DNA of 64,000 nucleotides from Candidatus Saccharimonadia bacterium (GCA_038230095.1 JBBRNT010000003.1:9811-73810); one strand, 5' to 3'; shown: positions 268 to 16,431, numbered from the stretch's first letter. Notes: a model not told the origin generated them from the sequence alone. Program-made: numbers and translations.

Positions 268-344
268 GGGGTTGTGGTGTAGAGGCCTAACATGTCTCCC
301 TGTCACGGAGAAGATCGCCGGTTCGAATCCGGTCAACCCCGCCA
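268..344 (+). tRNA. tRNA-Asp (anticodon GTC), CCA encoded
   Basis: Cloverleaf: acceptor ggggttg/caacccc, anticodon arm tctcc-ctGTCac-ggaga, T-arm gccgg-ttcgaat-ccggt, discriminator G + CCA. Confidence 0.9.
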
Positions 345-346
345 TG

Positions 347-377
347 AAAAGAGCGTCACGAAAGTGGCGCTTTTTTC
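347..377 (+). terminator. rho-independent terminator (agcgtcac-GAAA-gtggcgct + T6)
   Basis: 8-bp stem with GNRA loop followed by TTTTTT; a near-identical copy occurs at 1242-1267. Confidence 0.75.
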
Positions 378-397
378 ATGGCTAGATTCACAGATTT

Positions 398-506
398 GAG
401 AACCGGCGAGGCCGGTTCGGCGTAGCGAGGTGGCACGCAGGAATGTATTCCGAGTACAACCGAGCGGAGAAGGACGCAGTCCGCTACCCGGTCAACCCCG
501 CCAACC
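398..506. repeat. repeat element R3 copy A (gagaaccggcgaggccggttcgg ... gtccgctacccggtcaaccccgccaacc); 3' part duplicates 16 nt of the tRNA-Asp 3' end
   Basis: Shares a 23-nt head and 19-nt tail with 2505-2550; contains ccggtcaaccccgcca identical to tRNA-Asp 329-344. Confidence 0.5.
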
Positions 507-585
507 AGTAATTGGGGTTTTACGAAGCCTCTTTGTTGTTCTCCCCTGGTCCTAACTGTCTTGACGACTCTGCTACGATAGAAGT

Positions 586-1101
586 ATGGAGCACGCACAT
601 CACAACATGGTTGCGAGCGAGCACTCGCCAAAAGAGATAGCCAAGTTCATCCTGGTGCTACTCGGCATTACGAGCGCATCTCTCCTGCTCACTAACTATT
701 TCGGCCCACAGACCTTCAGCGGGTTTATGCGCTGGTTCATGGGTGTATTCTTCCTGGTTTTTGCCGCTTTCAAGTTTCTGGGCTATGCCATGTTCGTCGA
801 GATGTTTGCTGGCTACGACGTTGTCGCCAGGCGGTCATCGCTGTATGCCAAGCTTTATCCTTTCATCGAACTATCACTGGGGTTACTGTATGTTTTCGAC
901 TTGGGTAGCACAGGTCGGGATGTGGTGACGCTGCTCATTATGGCTGTCAGCTCAGTCGGGGTGTACGGTGAAATAAGAAAGCGCAGTGGTATCCACTGCG
1001 CTTGTCTCGGTAACATCATCAAGCTGCCACTTAGCACTGTCAGCCTTGTCGAGGACGCCGGTATGGCCCTGATGGCCATTGCTATGCTGGCGCTACGCTA
1101 A
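586..1101 (+). CDS. small polytopic membrane protein, DoxX/MauE-like (CAC motif in a TM segment)
   Basis: 171-aa ORF, 4-5 hydrophobic helices; ATG with upstream purine-rich stretch. Confidence 0.45.
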   Translation: MEHAHHNMVASEHSPKEIAKFILVLLGITSASLLLTNYFGPQTFSGFMRWFMGVFFLVFAAFKFLGYAMFVEMFAGYDVVARRSSLYAKLYPFIELSLGLLYVFDLGSTGRDVVTLLIMAVSSVGVYGEIRKRSGIHCACLGNIIKLPLSTVSLVEDAGMALMAIAMLALR

Positions 1102-1206
1102 AGTATGAGTAGCATTGGGTATATCGAGACCCATATTGCGGAACACCGATACACAGTTCATATGCAGCCTTGCCAGCACGATAATTAACGCTACAACGCC
1201 GTTATA

Positions 1207-1240
1207 GTTCGAAAATCGTTAACCAGCTCCCGCCAAGAAA
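1207..1240. repeat. degenerate copy of tRNA 3' half (agTTCGAAaatcgttaaccagctcCCGCCA)
   Basis: T-loop-like TTCGAA plus ...CCGCCA end, immediately followed by the same terminator that follows tRNA-Asp. Confidence 0.45.
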
Positions 1241-1241
1241 A

Positions 1242-1267
1242 GAGCGTCACGCAAGTGGCGCTTTTTT
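1242..1267 (+). terminator. rho-independent terminator, second copy (agcgtcac-GCAA-gtggcgct + T6)
   Basis: Near-identical to 347-377. Confidence 0.7.
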
Positions 1268-1301
1268 CTTGGGATAACGACTCACACTAAACGAGAAATA
1301 T

Positions 1302-1330
1302 TGACATATAGGGTAATATATGATTATATA
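1302..1330 (+). promoter_or_regulatory. sigma70-like promoter TTGACA-17-TAATAT
   Basis: Consensus -35 at 1302-1307, -10 at 1325-1330 in an AT-rich spacer upstream of the 1391 CDS. Confidence 0.55.
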
Positions 1331-1390
1331 TTATAACTAATTCTAAAGGATTAGCGATTGGGGGAATCCCCACGACCCTTGAGGAGCATC

Positions 1391-1777
1391 ATGACAACAC
1401 TCTCACTGGACCAAAGCGTGGTCGAGAGCATCTTTCTCGACTGCCTTTTTAAGGATGGCGAGGTCAGCAGCAACCACGTGTTGGCCGAAGGCATCACCAT
1501 GACGGTCGGGTTCAACCCCGGTCGAATCGAAACTCATAAGGCCGAGATTGAGGCTCTCTTGGACGAACTGCCGGATCAATTCCAGGCATCCGGTGGTGGT
1601 GGCTGGTCGTTCCTTAACGCATGCGAGGACAAGCATGGCAACCTGTGGACGGGCCTGCACCGTCGCATGGAGCAGCTCTTCCTGCTTGGCATCGCAATTG
1701 GCAAGGTCGAGTACCAGCTTCCTCGTGACATGTGGGGCGCCCTACCTGGCGGCATGCCCTACCTCGTGGTCAAATAG
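1391..1777 (+). CDS. hypothetical protein (128 aa)
   Basis: ATG 1391 preceded by gaggag (1381-1386); maximal ORF begins at 1358. Confidence 0.5.
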   Translation: MTTLSLDQSVVESIFLDCLFKDGEVSSNHVLAEGITMTVGFNPGRIETHKAEIEALLDELPDQFQASGGGGWSFLNACEDKHGNLWTGLHRRMEQLFLLGIAIGKVEYQLPRDMWGALPGGMPYLVVK

Positions 1778-1863
1778 CCATAACAACCCCGCATGGGGCG
1801 CAGCAACACTAGTAATGGTGTAAGCCTCGCTCCGGCGGGGTTTTCACTTTTATGGCCTAACAA

Positions 1864-1893
1864 TACTTCGAAAATCGTTACCAGCTCCTGCCA
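1864..1893. repeat. second degenerate copy of tRNA 3' half (acTTCGAAaatcgttaccagctcctgCCA)
   Basis: 27/29 nt shared with 1207-1240. Confidence 0.4.
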
Positions 1894-1937
1894 CAGGAAA
1901 TTCCTCACCCCACGATGGGCATTTCAATTCGCCGAGT

Positions 1938-2399
1938 GTGATTGCACTTATGCTGAATACGCACTATATTGTGGCTATGATATTCGTTATCCTTGCTATC
2001 CTCGTCTGCGCCTACGAGTCATTAACCAAGGGCTGGTTCATATTCTACATGATACCCTTGGCCGTCATAGCCTTTCCGCTGACACTCACGCTCCAGGGGC
2101 TATCGTTTCGCTACCAGAGCCGCCTGGCCGACCCAGCTCAACTGATCAAGATGCGCAATATCCAGATCGGGGCTCTCCTGGCTCTCTACGTCTTTACACC
2201 TGGGGTAGGGGACACCAGTGAGGTGCTACTCTTTGGGTTCTATAGCACAGACAGCACAGCTTTGATCGGTATGTCTATGGTGCTTGCCTGGCTCGCCGCC
2301 ATTGCTGCCCTCTATGCCACCATTCGGTTGTTCTATGCGGTAGTTATGGCCGGGAAGCTCCCCGCCAAGCAGAGCCAACCCAAGCTCACAAACCCGTGA
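1938..2399 (+). CDS. hypothetical integral membrane protein (153 aa)
   Basis: GTG start at 1938 (alternative ATG 1950); 4 predicted TM helices; hairpin at 2464-2490 downstream. Confidence 0.5.
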   Translation: MIALMLNTHYIVAMIFVILAILVCAYESLTKGWFIFYMIPLAVIAFPLTLTLQGLSFRYQSRLADPAQLIKMRNIQIGALLALYVFTPGVGDTSEVLLFGFYSTDSTALIGMSMVLAWLAAIAALYATIRLFYAVVMAGKLPAKQSQPKLTNP

Positions 2400-2504
2400 A
2401 ATTATAGGTTGAGCTGAGAAATAGTTCTACCTTAATGCGCTCGAGCCCGCCCACAAAAGTCCGTCACCAGCGTGGTGGTCTTTTCTTTGTAACTCGAATC
2501 GGAT

Positions 2505-2550
2505 GAGAACAGGCGAGGCCGGTTTGGTGGAGTCCGCTATCTGGTTAACC
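2505..2550. repeat. repeat element R3 copy B (gagaacaggcgaggccggtttgg-tgga-gtccgctatctggttaacc); copy A minus its central ~60 nt
   Basis: Head and tail match 398-420 and 479-497. Confidence 0.45.
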
Positions 2551-2595
2551 AGGACGGAAGGCTTGTCGCGGCCGGGCGGCGTTCTCGGAGCCTAG

Positions 2596-4278
2596 TTAGA
2601 GCCTAACTACCACGGCACGACCGTCGGTAAAGAACCGGTCTCCACTGGCATTCTGGCCTAGCTCGGGGGCCACGACTTGCAAGAACTCTGAGTCCTGTGC
2701 GCCCAGGGAGCCAGCAATGTAGCTACGCTCAGCGTCAACATTGGGGTCAATGTGGTGCGTGGGGAGCCTAGCTGGCCCGGCAAACTCTATACCTTCATCG
2801 AAGCTGGCGGTGGCAACCCAGATAGGCCGACCATCGGGCAGGGCAAAATCTGTCCGCCAAATCCGGGTGTGGTGACGCTGGCGGAGGGTATTGCTGGCCG
2901 TGGGTTTCTCAAATGCCAGGTCCTGAGGCTTGGCTAGTAAGTAGGAGGGCGTGACGGGGGCCGATAGGTACTGGCCACCCTGGAAGCCAACAGCTACAGC
3001 CCGAAGGGTATTAAAGAGCGTCGAGGGGTCGGCCTTGGTCCAGCCAGCCTGTTCGTAGCGCTGTTTTATCTGGTCCTCGTAGCCCACGTAGATGAATCCA
3101 ATAGGCTCCATATGCGCGCCAGTCAGGGTCTCACTGTACAGCGGCAGCTGGCTGGTGGTTTGCTCGTTGAGCGCTGCCAGCATCCTGTAGCCTGGCGTGG
3201 CAAGAGATACAGTGGGTCGGATAAATATTGGCGCGAGGATAATGCTAAATACCGCGATCGCGAGAGGCACAAAGAGCAGCTTTCGCGCTGGCACTATTGC
3301 TGTACGCTGCCCCCATAGCTGGTAGCGGGCAGAGAGCTCCAGGCAAGCAATAATAATCGTAAGTAGGAAGCCACCAAAAAGCACACTCGCCAAAACGTCA
3401 CTCGGGTAGTGGACGCCTAGGTAGATACGACTCAGGCCAACGAGAAAGACCACGGTAAGGTACGTCGCAGCAATAACAAGCCGGGCCAGCGTGGATTGAA
3501 GCGACTTGTAAAGAAAATAGGCCAACAGCCCATAGAGGAGCGTGGCGCGGAGCGCGTGGCCGCTGGGGAAGCTGGCACTGCTCTCGTGGATGAGGCTTAG
3601 ATAATTTTCAGGCCGAGTACGGCCAACCAGGTGCTTCAATAGAGTGGCTATGAGTTCCTCGGCGACAAACACCGCGGGCAACAGGGCAGCCAGGTATTTC
3701 TGGCCACATCGCCACAGTACCCACCCGAAAAGCGCAGTGAGTACTATCATGGTTTGCCAATTCGCTAGGAACGTAATAATGCTAAAAAAGCTGGTTTGCG
3801 CGGACGGCCGGGTGCTGGGTACTAGGTTGATCACCCGGGTGTCGATGCGAGTGAGTACCTCTTTGAGAAGCACCTGCCGGGTAATGCCAGCAAAGCCCAT
3901 AAGCCAGGCCAGGGCGATAGCGATAGCTACGGTTAAGCCGGGGCCAGTGGGGGAGGCAATGTCGAACCGCCGACGGAGCCAGCTAACCACTGGCGATTTA
4001 CTGCGCAGTATGGTGCGGATGTAACTATTCTTTTGGATGCCGTCCCAGGCAGAAACCAGAATGGAGCCGACTATTTGCAGTGGTTTCCACAGTATGACGA
4101 CCAGGCTGTGAATGAAGGTGAGTGCGAGGATGAGCTGGAGGAGGATAGCCATAGCGAAGAGCGCCGGGGAACCAAATACGTCCCAAGTTTTGGCTAGGTA
4201 TAGATTGATTGCTGACAAGATGATGGCAAGGGCTGATAGTACTAGGTAGGCTCTGAGCTTGAGGTGGGGTTTGTTCAT
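2596..4278 (-). CDS. membrane-bound PAP2-family phosphatase with large C-terminal extracytoplasmic domain (LssY-C-like)
   Basis: PAP2 motifs KX6RP (GRTRPENY), PSGH (SFPSGHA), SRX5HX3D (SRIYLGVHYPSD); about 8 TM helices N-terminal. Confidence 0.8.
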   Translation of the reverse strand: MNKPHLKLRAYLVLSALAIILSAINLYLAKTWDVFGSPALFAMAILLQLILALTFIHSLVVILWKPLQIVGSILVSAWDGIQKNSYIRTILRSKSPVVSWLRRRFDIASPTGPGLTVAIAIALAWLMGFAGITRQVLLKEVLTRIDTRVINLVPSTRPSAQTSFFSIITFLANWQTMIVLTALFGWVLWRCGQKYLAALLPAVFVAEELIATLLKHLVGRTRPENYLSLIHESSASFPSGHALRATLLYGLLAYFLYKSLQSTLARLVIAATYLTVVFLVGLSRIYLGVHYPSDVLASVLFGGFLLTIIIACLELSARYQLWGQRTAIVPARKLLFVPLAIAVFSIILAPIFIRPTVSLATPGYRMLAALNEQTTSQLPLYSETLTGAHMEPIGFIYVGYEDQIKQRYEQAGWTKADPSTLFNTLRAVAVGFQGGQYLSAPVTPSYLLAKPQDLAFEKPTASNTLRQRHHTRIWRTDFALPDGRPIWVATASFDEGIEFAGPARLPTHHIDPNVDAERSYIAGSLGAQDSEFLQVVAPELGQNASGDRFFTDGRAVVVRL

Positions 4279-4423
4279 ATAAGCATAGTGTAGTACGGAA
4301 CGCTATGAGGAGGAAAGCAGCGAGCCTGGCTTGGGCTCAGGCGTAGAAAAGTGCGTCGTACTGCTGGTGGTTCTTCTAGGCATTGGCCTTTGCAGAGCCA
4401 TCTTTCTCTGGTATCCTTGCCCA

Positions 4424-5029
4424 ATGCCGAACCAAACGCTTCGTATTGTGGTAGTTCCTGGTCTTGATGATGGCAAGTACAACATTCTTGGTCTGGTGTC
4501 CCGCATCTGGAATAGCGACCAGGTTCAGATCTATCCGTTGCCGGTAGGTTGGCGCAATGGTGCCTCCTACAAACGCAAGCTGGCCACGTTGCTGGAGCTG
4601 GTGGATGAGCTACTGGCGACTGGCGATCCGGTGGCGATTGTGGGCATTAGTGCCGGGGCTAGCCTAGCGCTCAACGCTTACACCCTCCGCCCCCGACTCC
4701 TCGGTATGGCCAACCTGTGTGGCACCCTGCGCTTTGGGCTTGCGCCGCCGGCGTCCCTGACGCGCCGTGCCTGGGCTGTCCCGGCCTACCACGACTCGGT
4801 GCTAGCCTGCGAGGTGACCCAAGAGAAACTGACGGTGGAGCAACGCCGGCGAGTGCTCATAATGAAGCCGCTGCGTGACGGCATTGTGCCGCTTGCGACC
4901 ATGACGCTCCGGGGCGCCAAAGAGCACCGGGTGGTGGGAGTGAACCACTCGCAAAGCATTGTGACAGCTCTGCTGCTGTACCGCCGAACTATGGTGGGGT
5001 TCTTCCAAGATCTCCTACAGACTGCATAA
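4424..5029 (+). CDS. alpha/beta-hydrolase fold protein (GISAGAS nucleophile elbow)
   Basis: GxSxG motif and beta-strand IVVVPGLDD at N-terminus; start uncertain (maximal ORF from TTG 4331, first ATG 4424). Confidence 0.6.
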   Translation: MPNQTLRIVVVPGLDDGKYNILGLVSRIWNSDQVQIYPLPVGWRNGASYKRKLATLLELVDELLATGDPVAIVGISAGASLALNAYTLRPRLLGMANLCGTLRFGLAPPASLTRRAWAVPAYHDSVLACEVTQEKLTVEQRRRVLIMKPLRDGIVPLATMTLRGAKEHRVVGVNHSQSIVTALLLYRRTMVGFFQDLLQTA

Positions 5030-5058
5030 GTAAGGCGCCACGTAAGTGGCGCCTTTTT
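5030..5058 (+). terminator. rho-independent terminator (ggcgccac-GTAA-gtggcgcc + T5)
   Basis: Perfect 8-bp stem, GNRA loop, T-run; immediately after TAA 5027-5029. Confidence 0.8.
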
Positions 5059-5091
5059 CAAATGCGTTGCTCACCTCTGACGGCGACAAGC

Positions 5092-16243: not shown

Positions 16244-16319
16244 CGCCGATGTAGCTCAGTTGGTAGAGCAGTGCTTTCGTAAAGCAAAGGTCAGCGGTTC
16301 AACTCCGCTCATCGGCTCC
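16244..16319 (+). tRNA. tRNA-Thr (anticodon CGT), CCA encoded
   Basis: gccgatg acceptor, D-arm gtagctcagttggtagagc, anticodon loop ttCGTaa, T-arm agcgg-ttcaact-ccgct. Confidence 0.9.
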
Positions 16320-16393
16320 AGCGGGTATAGTTTAGTGGTAGAACGCGACCTTCCCAAGGTTGAGATGCGGGTCCGATTCCCGCTACCCGCTCC
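16320..16393 (+). tRNA. tRNA-Gly (anticodon CCC), CCA encoded
   Basis: gcgggta acceptor, anticodon loop ttCCCaa, T-arm gcggg-tccgatt-cccgc; abuts tRNA-Thr with no spacer. Confidence 0.9.
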
Positions 16394-16431
16394 AAAACAA
16401 ATGGCTCACCTCCGGGTGAGCCATTTGTTTT
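16394..16431 (+). terminator. rho-independent terminator (aaacaaatggctcacc-tccg-ggtgagccatttgttt)
   Basis: 16-bp stem with T-run. Confidence 0.85.

What the first reader, a model, noticed from the sequence alone, without database searches (positions are those of the whole stretch)
268..2600. tRNA-Asp followed by decayed, repeated att-like fragments, a duplicated terminator and a third repeat: stacked mini-islets
- The 16 nt ccggtcaaccccgcca of the tRNA-Asp 3' end (329-344) recurs exactly at 488-503.
- Two more degenerate T-arm/acceptor-like copies (TTCGAAaatcgttaaccagctcCCGCCA) lie at 1207-1240 and 1864-1893.
- The terminator that follows the tRNA (347-377) is duplicated almost verbatim at 1242-1267.
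- A third element (398-506) recurs in shortened form at 2505-2550.

Each repeat boundary delimits a single small gene: a membrane protein at 586-1101, a hypothetical with a consensus promoter at 1391-1777, and a membrane protein at 1938-2399. Direct repeats of a tRNA 3' end are the footprint of site-specific integration. Several nested copies suggest successive insertions that have since lost their integrases.
Basis: seen in the sequence. Interest (0 to 1): 0.55.

Follow-up and report, generated by a model that had tools for sequence, protein, structure and literature searches.

The report
Decayed integration scars after tRNA-Asp
Just after a tRNA-Asp gene in a Saccharibacteria genome, partial copies of the tRNA's end separate three small unrelated genes, which is the ordinary scar left when foreign DNA inserts repeatedly at a tRNA gene, here in unusually small form and with no integrase left.

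Summary
The repeats are real. None of them recurs elsewhere in the 64 kb window.

**Structure.** Five sites share a 7-nt core, CC(C/T)GCC(A/C), which is the last bases of tRNA-Asp. They lie at 338, 497, 1229, 1887 and 2446. The sequences on either side of the core are shuffled between sites:
- Left arms pair as tRNA with 497, and 1229 with 1887.
- Right arms, a terminator hairpin, pair as 338 with 1229, and more weakly with 2446.
- The partial copies begin at the anticodon loop or the T arm, never in the tRNA's 5' half.

This pattern points to recombination at the tRNA 3' end. It is what serial integration predicts, with each new insert pushing older ones further from the tRNA.

**Genes.** The sites separate three real single-gene units:
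- A is a MauE-family membrane protein.
- B belongs to a family found in jumbo phages and in more than 500 Saccharibacteria proteins, in changing genomic contexts.
- C is a rare membrane protein.

**Limits.**
- No integrase was found in the window.
- No close relative exists in the collections searched, so presence or absence of the inserts could not be tested.
- The outer repeat extends about 200 nt beyond the tRNA, into the terminator and element X. A simple attachment-site core does not explain this.

**Verdict.** This is a miniature, integrase-less, tRNA-anchored island, a new member of a known kind. Interest is modest.

The parts
268..344 (+). tRNA-Asp(GTC) with encoded CCA. Site M1 carries the 7-nt core CCCGCCA at 338-344.
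   Evidence: ARAGORN; Rfam RF00005 at 63 bits; cloverleaf fold.
342..381 (+). T1: an 18-bp hairpin terminator with a GAAA loop and an A tract and T tract on either side. Its stem includes the tRNA's CCA.
   Evidence: Fold z-score -6.5; repeat family D1.
397..487 (+). Element X, non-coding, with a hairpin at 400-418. No significant overall fold.
   Evidence: Repeat families D3 and D6; fold z-score -1.5.
465..503 (+). Site M1b: a 39-nt partial copy of the tRNA 3' half that starts just after the anticodon. The last 16 nt are exact and the T-arm part is scrambled. The core lies at 497-503.
   Evidence: p about 0.001; 22/36 ungapped, p 2.5e-5.
586..1101 (+). Gene A: a MauE/DoxX-like membrane protein of 171 aa. 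It appears to be a leaderless transcription unit with its own promoter.
   Evidence: Pfam PF07291, E 1.3e-14; a 62% identical homologue in L019 with the same promoter-to-ATG layout.
1204..1235 (+). Site M2: the 'P' arm ATAGTTCGAAAATCGTTAACCAGCT followed by the core CCCGCCA. It looks like a decayed, indel-ridden copy of the tRNA T arm and acceptor.
   Evidence: p about 0.02 against the tRNA arm.
1233..1272 (+). T2: a copy of T1 with 3 differences. Two are compensatory stem changes and one turns one GNRA loop into another. It terminates gene A.
   Evidence: fold z-score -4.9.
1299..1390 (+). Promoter and leader of gene B. The -35 element TTGACA lies at 1301-1306, followed by a 17-nt spacer, TG and an AT-rich -10. 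The ribosome-binding site GAGGAG lies at 1380-1385.
   Evidence: Read directly from the sequence. The -35 element and 17-nt spacer are conserved upstream of the homologues in L002, L013 and L008.
1391..1777 (+). Gene B: a 128-aa protein of unknown function, family phrog_26039.
   Evidence: PHROG E 2.8e-37; jumbo-phage homologues at 32-60%; 520 homologues, mostly 60-78% identical; AF2 pLDDT 89.7 with no strong fold match.
1786..1850 (+). Long hairpin terminator of gene B, conserved together with the gene in relatives.
   Evidence: Fold z-score -4.0; DNA conservation in L002 and L013.
1863..1893 (+). Site M3: a second copy of the P arm plus the core (CCTGCCA). Its right arm is unique.
   Evidence: (left arm 24/27 against M2).
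1950..2399 (+). Gene C: a 149-aa predicted four-helix membrane protein (an alternative GTG start lies at 1938). It belongs to a rare family.
   Evidence: Only itself found in the 5.8-billion-protein search; 71 distant relatives at 44% identity or less in the exhaustive search; gene call in L004.
2410..2452 (+). Site M4: a decayed partial tRNA 3'-half copy with the core CCCGCCC at 2446-2452.
   Evidence: 52-nt ungapped match to tRNA end plus T1; 18/36 against the M1b arm, p 0.0015; 15/36 against the tRNA, p 0.025.
2453..2489 (+). T4: a decayed terminator copy lying between the convergent genes C and D.
   Evidence: (26-27/40 against T1 and T2; null 99.9th percentile 19/40).
2504..2558 (+). X': a shortened copy of X with an internal deletion of about 52 nt. 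It lacks the CCGCCA core.
2596..4278 (-). Gene D (PAP2 plus LssY_C domains), the distal boundary of the repeat-bearing region.
   Evidence: Pfam. Best non-self homologues are 55-57% identical and not syntenic.

Best explanation
The region is a historical scar, not a working device. The 3' end of tRNA-Asp has been used repeatedly as a recombination target.

**Mechanism (inferred).** Each incoming DNA carried its own copy of the tRNA end. It recombined at or near the last 7 nt (CCCGCCA) and regenerated an intact tRNA. The previous tRNA end, with whatever followed it, was pushed further downstream.

**Observed order (shown).** tRNA-O-T1-X-[A]-P-O-T2-[B]-P-O-Q-[C]-L4-O-T4-X'. Here O is the core, T the terminator, P and L4 are left arms, and Q is a unique right arm.

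**How the order follows from the model (inferred).**
- The original locus was tRNA-O-T4-X'.
- Unit C arrived first, then unit B, then unit A together with T1-X.
- Units A and B used nearly identical attachment regions (P-O-T).

**Later events (inferred).** The recombinase genes were lost or acted in trans. The displaced tRNA ends decayed. T1 and T2 were kept by selection because they terminate the tRNA and gene A transcripts.

**What remains (shown).** Three self-contained single-gene transcription units: a MauE-like membrane protein, a phage-family protein, and a rare membrane protein.

The repeats, the shuffling of arms, the boundaries and the nature of the genes are shown. The integration events, their order and the enzyme are inferred.
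For: - Five sites share the core. Left arms pair as M1 with M1b (23/29) and M2 with M3 (24/27). Right arms pair as M1 with M2 (34/40), M1 with M4 (26/40) and M2 with M4 (27/40), against a null 99.9th percentile of 19/40. M1b and M3 have unique right arms.
- The partial copies begin at the anticodon loop (M1b, position 306) or at the T arm (M2). No similarity to the tRNA 5' half lies upstream of them.
- The repeats occur only here in 64 kb. No other tRNA or the tmRNA in the window has 3'-end repeats.
- The three differences between T1 and T2 are one compensatory base-pair swap and one GNRA-to-GNRA loop change.
- Gene B matches phrog_26039 and occurs in jumbo phages. It lies in at least six different contexts in relatives, two of them arrays resembling mobile elements.
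- The conserved B unit (promoter to terminator, about 1299-1850) ends just inside the flanking P-O repeats.
- The same logic is established for tandem ssrA islands in Dehalococcoides (PMC3146451), for tRNA-proximal islands in Prochlorococcus (bioRxiv 10.1101/2020.12.28.424599), and for integrase-less att-flanked CIMEs (PMC5704250).
Against: - No recombinase domain appears in any of the 46 ORFs scanned, and there is no room for a remnant within 1-2600.
- No related element, attP or empty site was found in the viral, metagenome or genome collections.
- Genes A, B and C have host-like GC and GC3.
- Homology between the proximal and distal copies runs about 200 nt past the tRNA into T, the spacer and X. 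Homologous recombination or local duplication would explain this more simply.
- The islets are 0.16-0.7 kb, far smaller than any known autonomous integrative element.
- The tRNA-likeness of the P arm is only marginally significant.
Confidence: 0.55

Rival explanations
1. Local duplication and homologous recombination, without a site-specific integrase. The 16-nt direct repeats at 329-344 and 488-503 flank a 159-nt unit [T-X]. Unequal crossing-over, or Campbell-type homologous insertion of DNA taken up from related strains, duplicated the roughly 200-nt [tRNA 3' part-T-X] segment. Genes then accumulated between the copies.
For: - Collinear homology extends beyond the tRNA through the terminator, the spacer and X.
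- X and X' share the same scrambled T-arm version, so both derive from one ancestral flank.
- No integrase is present.
- Base composition is host-like.
Against: - This does not explain why the left and right arms are shuffled exactly at the 7-nt core.
- It does not explain why the copies start at the canonical anticodon-loop and T-arm positions.
- It does not explain why the 32-nt P-O pair neatly brackets the phage-family B unit.
Confidence: 0.25
2. The O-T and P-O units belong to a dispersed short repeat family (a terminator-bearing MITE or REP-like element), and several copies happen to lie near the tRNA.
For: - T is a perfect bidirectional hairpin, a typical body for a small dispersed repeat.
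- A terminator at 5030-5062 resembles the right half of T1 (20/22).
Against: - No further copy of any unit occurs in the 64 kb window with up to 3 mismatches.
- None occurs in the loci fetched from other organisms or in the viral contigs.
- All copies are in one orientation, within 2.2 kb downstream of the one tRNA whose end they copy.
Confidence: 0.07
3. The partial tRNA copies are functional tRNA-like RNA elements, acting as 3' processing or stability signals for the three mRNAs.
For: Each gene is followed by a unit containing a tRNA-end-like sequence. Both T1 and T2 are kept intact by compensatory change.
Against: - The P-O units and X/X' show no stable or tRNA-like fold. Fold z-scores are -1.5 and +0.2, and nothing pairs upstream of T2.
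- The T-stem 5' strand and acceptor 5' strand are absent.
- ARAGORN and Rfam find nothing, even at permissive thresholds.
- The copies are visibly decaying.
Confidence: 0.03

Closest known systems
Tandem genomic islands at tRNA or tmRNA genes with arrays of displaced 3'-end direct repeats. Examples are the Dehalococcoides ssrA islands (PMC3146451) and Islander-type islands (PMC4383910).
   Same: - An intact target gene sits at one end, with a series of same-orientation partial 3' copies downstream.
- A conserved non-tRNA motif lies immediately upstream of each repeat and marks the insertion point.
- The genome is small and streamlined, and newer inserts lie closest to the target gene.
   Different: - No integrase or integration module is present here.
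- The islets are 0.16-0.7 kb with one gene each, against 7-30 kb in the known cases.
- The repeats are much more decayed.
- Homology continues beyond the tRNA into the terminator and X.
Growth of tRNA-proximal islands by tycheposons in Prochlorococcus (bioRxiv 10.1101/2020.12.28.424599).
   Same: The model of repeated integration at the tRNA, with older material pushed inward, leaving partial tRNAs and degenerated elements. Most island material lacks hallmark mobility genes.
   Different: No tycheposon hallmark genes (tyrosine recombinase, primase or replication module) occur in the window. The phylum differs, and the scale here is 2.2 kb.
CIMEs (cis-mobilizable elements): decayed integrative elements that keep attL and attR but have lost their integration and transfer genes. 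They accumulate by accretion (PMC5704250; Pavlovic et al. 2004, as cited there).
   Same: Att-like repeats flank cargo that has no recombinase. The elements are stacked in tandem at the 3' end of a target gene.
   Different: No related complete ICE or IME is known for this lineage, and mobilization is untested. Several of the sites here are probably too decayed to function.
Repeats of the tRNA 3' end downstream of E. coli tyrT (from my own knowledge: Egan and Landy 1978; Rossi et al. 1981).
   Same: The tRNA 3' terminal segment is repeated together with downstream flank. Termination signals lie within the repeated units.
   Different: The tyrT repeats are tandem 178-bp units with no independent genes inserted between them.

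Membership tests
tRNA-integrated genomic island (Islander definition) | Intact (regenerated) tRNA gene at one end | tested here: met
   tRNA-Asp 268-344.
tRNA-integrated genomic island (Islander definition) | Displaced 3' fragment of the same tRNA as a direct repeat at the other end | tested here: met
   16 nt exact and 39 nt partial at 465-503. Decayed copies at 1204-1235, 1863-1893 and 2410-2452.
tRNA-integrated genomic island (Islander definition) | Tyrosine (or serine) integrase gene inside the island | tested here: not met
   No recombinase Pfam domain in the 46 ORFs scanned across the window. Intergenic gaps in 1-2600 are at most 290 nt.
tRNA-integrated genomic island (Islander definition) | Presence or absence polymorphism among related genomes | not testable with these tools
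   The tRNA-Asp sequence is absent from the genome (full 77 nt), viral and metagenome (3' 23 nt) collections. The nearest homologue of gene D is 57% identical and not syntenic.
CIME (cis-mobilizable element) | Flanked by attL and attR derived from the target gene | tested here: met
   Each gene is bracketed by core-bearing sites.
CIME (cis-mobilizable element) | Lacks integration and transfer genes | tested here: met
   Only genes A, B and C are present.
CIME (cis-mobilizable element) | Derived from, and mobilizable by, a related complete integrative element | tested here: inconclusive
   No element carrying P-O, T or the tRNA end was found in the viral contigs. The metagenome scan was run for the tRNA end only and also found nothing. 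This lineage is poorly represented in the collections.
Integron cassette array | intI integrase with attI next to the array | tested here: not met
   No recombinase in the window. The upstream side is visible for only 267 nt.
Integron cassette array | attC sites that fold as imperfect hairpins | tested here: not met
   The P-O units have no stable pairing (fold of 1190-1275 and 1778-1900).
Integron cassette array | Mostly promoterless cassettes | tested here: not met
   Genes A and B carry their own conserved promoters.
Tycheposon | Hallmark tyrosine recombinase plus replication module next to the tRNA | tested here: not met
   Neither was found among the ORFs scanned.

The most novel reading that the evidence does not exclude
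The array is a still-active, integron-like single-gene cassette system anchored at a tRNA 3' end in an ultra-small CPR genome. The 32-nt P-O units would act as cassette-borne recombination sites. The tRNA end would act as the primary site. A recombinase encoded elsewhere, or on a phage, would shuffle self-contained promoter-gene-terminator cassettes between strains.

The near-identical P-O-T attachment regions of units A and B are compatible with this. So is the fact that any O x O recombination would release a circle carrying one such site.
Probability: 0.07. Interest if true: 0.7.

Novelty: new member of a known kind. Interest (0 to 1): 0.3.

Why it matters
The finding shows that the classical process of island growth at a tRNA gene also leaves traces in Saccharibacteria, an episymbiotic lineage with a genome of about 1 Mb. 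Gene gain in this lineage is poorly understood.

Here the process can be reduced to single-gene units, each with its own promoter and terminator.

The shuffling of arms around a 7-nt core gives a concrete, testable crossover site. It would serve as a handle for looking for excision junctions in read data.

It does not reveal a new mechanism.

Tried and rejected
**Searches for the tRNA-Asp locus in relatives.**
- The exact 77-nt tRNA in 185,579 species genomes gave no hit.
- The 23-nt 3' end in viral and metagenome contigs gave no hit.
- The gene D protein in the genome collection gave one non-syntenic locus at 53% identity, with no tRNA.
- Contexts of gene D homologues lacked synteny and tRNA-Asp.
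- Gene A homologues in metagenomes were 62% identical or less, and none lies next to a tRNA.

**Searches for an element carrying P-O, T or X in viral contigs.** P-O and T gave nothing. X gave one hit in a high-GC phage. It is a short intergenic hairpin with no flanking similarity, at about the number expected by chance, so I rejected it.

**RNA explanations.**
- Rfam at permissive thresholds returned only the tRNA.
- Folds of X and X' were not better than shuffles.
- Decayed whole-tRNA paralogues were rejected because no 5'-half similarity was found.

**Other checks.**
- An integron reading was rejected (see Membership tests).
- Base composition shows no foreign signature.
- Defence-system models (PADLOC) did not match genes A to D.
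- A search for partial-tRNA repeats downstream of the tRNAs in the relative locus L002 found none.

Full report
**Observation**

The window comes from a Saccharibacteria (Patescibacteria) genome. The named homologues of its proteins come from that group. It carries the usual small-genome set of tRNAs, RNase P, 6S RNA and tmRNA.

tRNA-Asp(GTC) lies at 268-344.
- The last 16 nt of the tRNA recur exactly at 488-503, and these are the only two copies in 64 kb.
- The tRNA end plus the following hairpin (338-381) recurs at 1229-1272 with 41 of 44 matches.
- A 32-nt unit at 1204-1235 recurs at 1863-1893.
- Element X (397-503) recurs in shortened form at 2504-2552.

None of the units occurs elsewhere in the window. 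None occurs in the loci fetched from other organisms. The other five tRNAs and the tmRNA in the window have no such repeats.

**Anatomy**

All five sites share a 7-nt core, O = CC(C/T)GCC(A/C), which is the last bases of the tRNA. I aligned the sites on the core and compared the arms.
- Left arms fall into two classes. The tRNA and M1b (465-503) match at 23/29. M2 and M3 share arm 'P', ATAGTTCGAAAATCGTTA(A)CCAGCT, at 24/27.
- Right arms fall into a different grouping. M1, M2 and M4 all carry the terminator T (34/40, 26/40 and 27/40, against a null 99.9th percentile of 19/40). M1b and M3 have unique right arms.

The arms are therefore shuffled exactly at the core. That is the attB/attP/attL/attR pattern of site-specific recombination.

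The similarity of M1b to the tRNA starts at position 306, the last base of the anticodon loop. The similarity of M2 starts in the T arm (p about 0.02). The left arm of M4 matches the M1b arm at 18/36 ungapped (p 0.0015). Upstream of each partial copy there is no significant similarity to the tRNA's 5' half. They are therefore 3' fragments, not decayed whole tRNA genes. The anticodon loop and T loop are the classical crossover positions of tRNA-targeting integrases (Williams 2002, from my own knowledge; cited as 'Sublocations' in PMC3146451).

**Model**

The observed order is tRNA-O-T1-X-[A]-P-O-T2-[B]-P-O-Q-[C]-L4-O-T4-X'. This is what three successive integrations at the tRNA end would produce:
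- The original flank was T4-X'.
- Unit C arrived first, with attachment region L4-O-Q.
- Unit B arrived next, with P-O-T2.
- Unit A arrived last, with P-O-T1-X.

Each event regenerated the tRNA and pushed earlier material downstream. The model predicts that T1 is closest to T2, that both differ from T4, and that the P arm of A matches the P arm of B. All of this is observed.

The same growth model is described for three known cases:
- Prochlorococcus tRNA islands (bioRxiv 10.1101/2020.12.28.424599).
- Dehalococcoides ssrA islands, where a non-ssrA motif upstream of each repeat likewise marks the insertion point (PMC3146451).
- Accretion of integrase-less CIMEs (PMC5704250).

**The genes**

All three genes are real.
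- **Gene A (586-1101)** is a MauE-family membrane protein. A 62% identical homologue elsewhere shares its promoter and leaderless layout.
- **Gene B (1391-1777)** matches phage family phrog_26039 (E 2.8e-37). It has homologues in jumbo phages of Proteobacteria at 32-60% identity. It has 520 database homologues, mostly 60-78% identical, and those that carry names are from Saccharibacteria or Patescibacteria. In the relatives sampled it lies in at least six different contexts. These include two arrays of tiny same-strand genes typical of phages or plasmids, and a variable region downstream of tRNA-Phe and tRNA-Gly. The DNA conserved with relatives runs from the promoter to the 3' hairpin (about 1299-1850) and stops just inside the flanking P-O repeats.
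- **Gene C (1950-2399)** found only itself in the indexed search. It has 71 distant relatives in the exhaustive search.

**Selection on the terminators**

T1 and T2 are perfect 18-bp hairpins (z-scores -6.5 and -4.9). Their three differences are a T-A to A-T swap of one base pair and a GAAA to GCAA loop change. Both hairpins are therefore being maintained, T1 for the tRNA and T2 for gene A. X, X' and the P-O units have no significant fold. No Rfam family matches them. This argues against a functional tRNA-like RNA.

**What does not fit or could not be tested**

- No recombinase domain occurs in any of the 46 ORFs scanned. There is also no room for a remnant within 1-2600.
- Genes A, B and C have host-like GC and GC3.
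- The proximal and distal copies are collinear for about 200 nt: tRNA 3' part, T, spacer and X. They share the same scrambled T-arm version inside X. The incoming DNA must therefore have carried a flank homologous to this lineage's own tRNA-Asp downstream region. This suggests exchange of whole att-flanked segments among related strains, or a role for homologous recombination or unequal crossing-over between the 16-nt repeats.
- No close relative of this organism is present in the collections. The tRNA end is absent from them. The best non-self homologue is 78% identical for gene B and 57% for gene D, and no relative shares synteny. Presence or absence of the inserts, which is the decisive test, could not be run.

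**Verdict**

The best reading is a miniature, decayed, integrase-less, tRNA-anchored island built by recombination at the tRNA 3' end (confidence about 0.55). Local duplication or homologous recombination is the main rival (about 0.25). It is a new member of a well-known kind and of modest interest. The unusual points are the single-gene scale, the clean shuffling of arms around a 7-nt core, and the host lineage.

Noticed in passing
[not shown]
   Followed up: partly
window 342-381 vs 1233-1272: The two terminator copies differ at three positions. Two form a compensatory base-pair swap in the stem and one changes a GAAA loop to GCAA. Both hairpins are therefore under selection.
   Followed up: yes
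window 1786-1850; L002 6388-6460; L013 5376-5450: The long 3' hairpin of gene B, and its -35 element with a 17-nt spacer, are conserved at the DNA level together with the gene in relatives. The gene appears to travel as a promoter-gene-terminator unit.
   Followed up: partly
window 5030-5062: The terminator after ORF 4331-5029 resembles the right half of T1 (20/22 identical, GNRA loop). No core or tRNA-like sequence precedes it.
   Followed up: no
window 2596-4278 (-): Gene D (PAP2 plus LssY_C) has no close Saccharibacteria orthologue (57% identity at best). It is about 47% identical to proteins of the actinobacterium Sinomonas. Actinobacteria are the usual hosts of Saccharibacteria (from my own knowledge), so this may be gene transfer between host and episymbiont. 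In relatives the gene sits in varying, island-like contexts. In L005 a ParB_N-domain gene and a serine recombinase gene lie about 3.4-5.8 kb downstream of it.
   Followed up: partly
window 560-588; L019 20-46: Gene A and its 62% identical homologue both start 7 nt after a -10-like hexamer, which suggests leaderless mRNAs.
   Followed up: no
L002 2300-12387; L013 900-10300: In two related genomes the region downstream of tRNA-Phe and tRNA-Gly is a variable run of small same-strand genes. It includes the gene B homologue, shows gene insertions and deletions between the two genomes, and ends in a DnaG-type zinc-ribbon (primase-like) gene, joined in L002 by PIN and AAA_25 genes. This may be another tRNA-anchored island, but no partial-tRNA repeats were found.
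   Followed up: partly
L004 (Logan SRR19962015 contig) start = window 305: An independent assembly of the same organism breaks one base after the anticodon of tRNA-Asp. This is the point where the partial-copy homology begins. It may be a coincidence, or it may reflect a branch in the assembly graph.
   Followed up: no
window 16245-16394: tRNA-Thr(CGT) and tRNA-Gly(CCC) abut with no spacer. The CCA of the first is immediately followed by the first base of the second.
   Followed up: no
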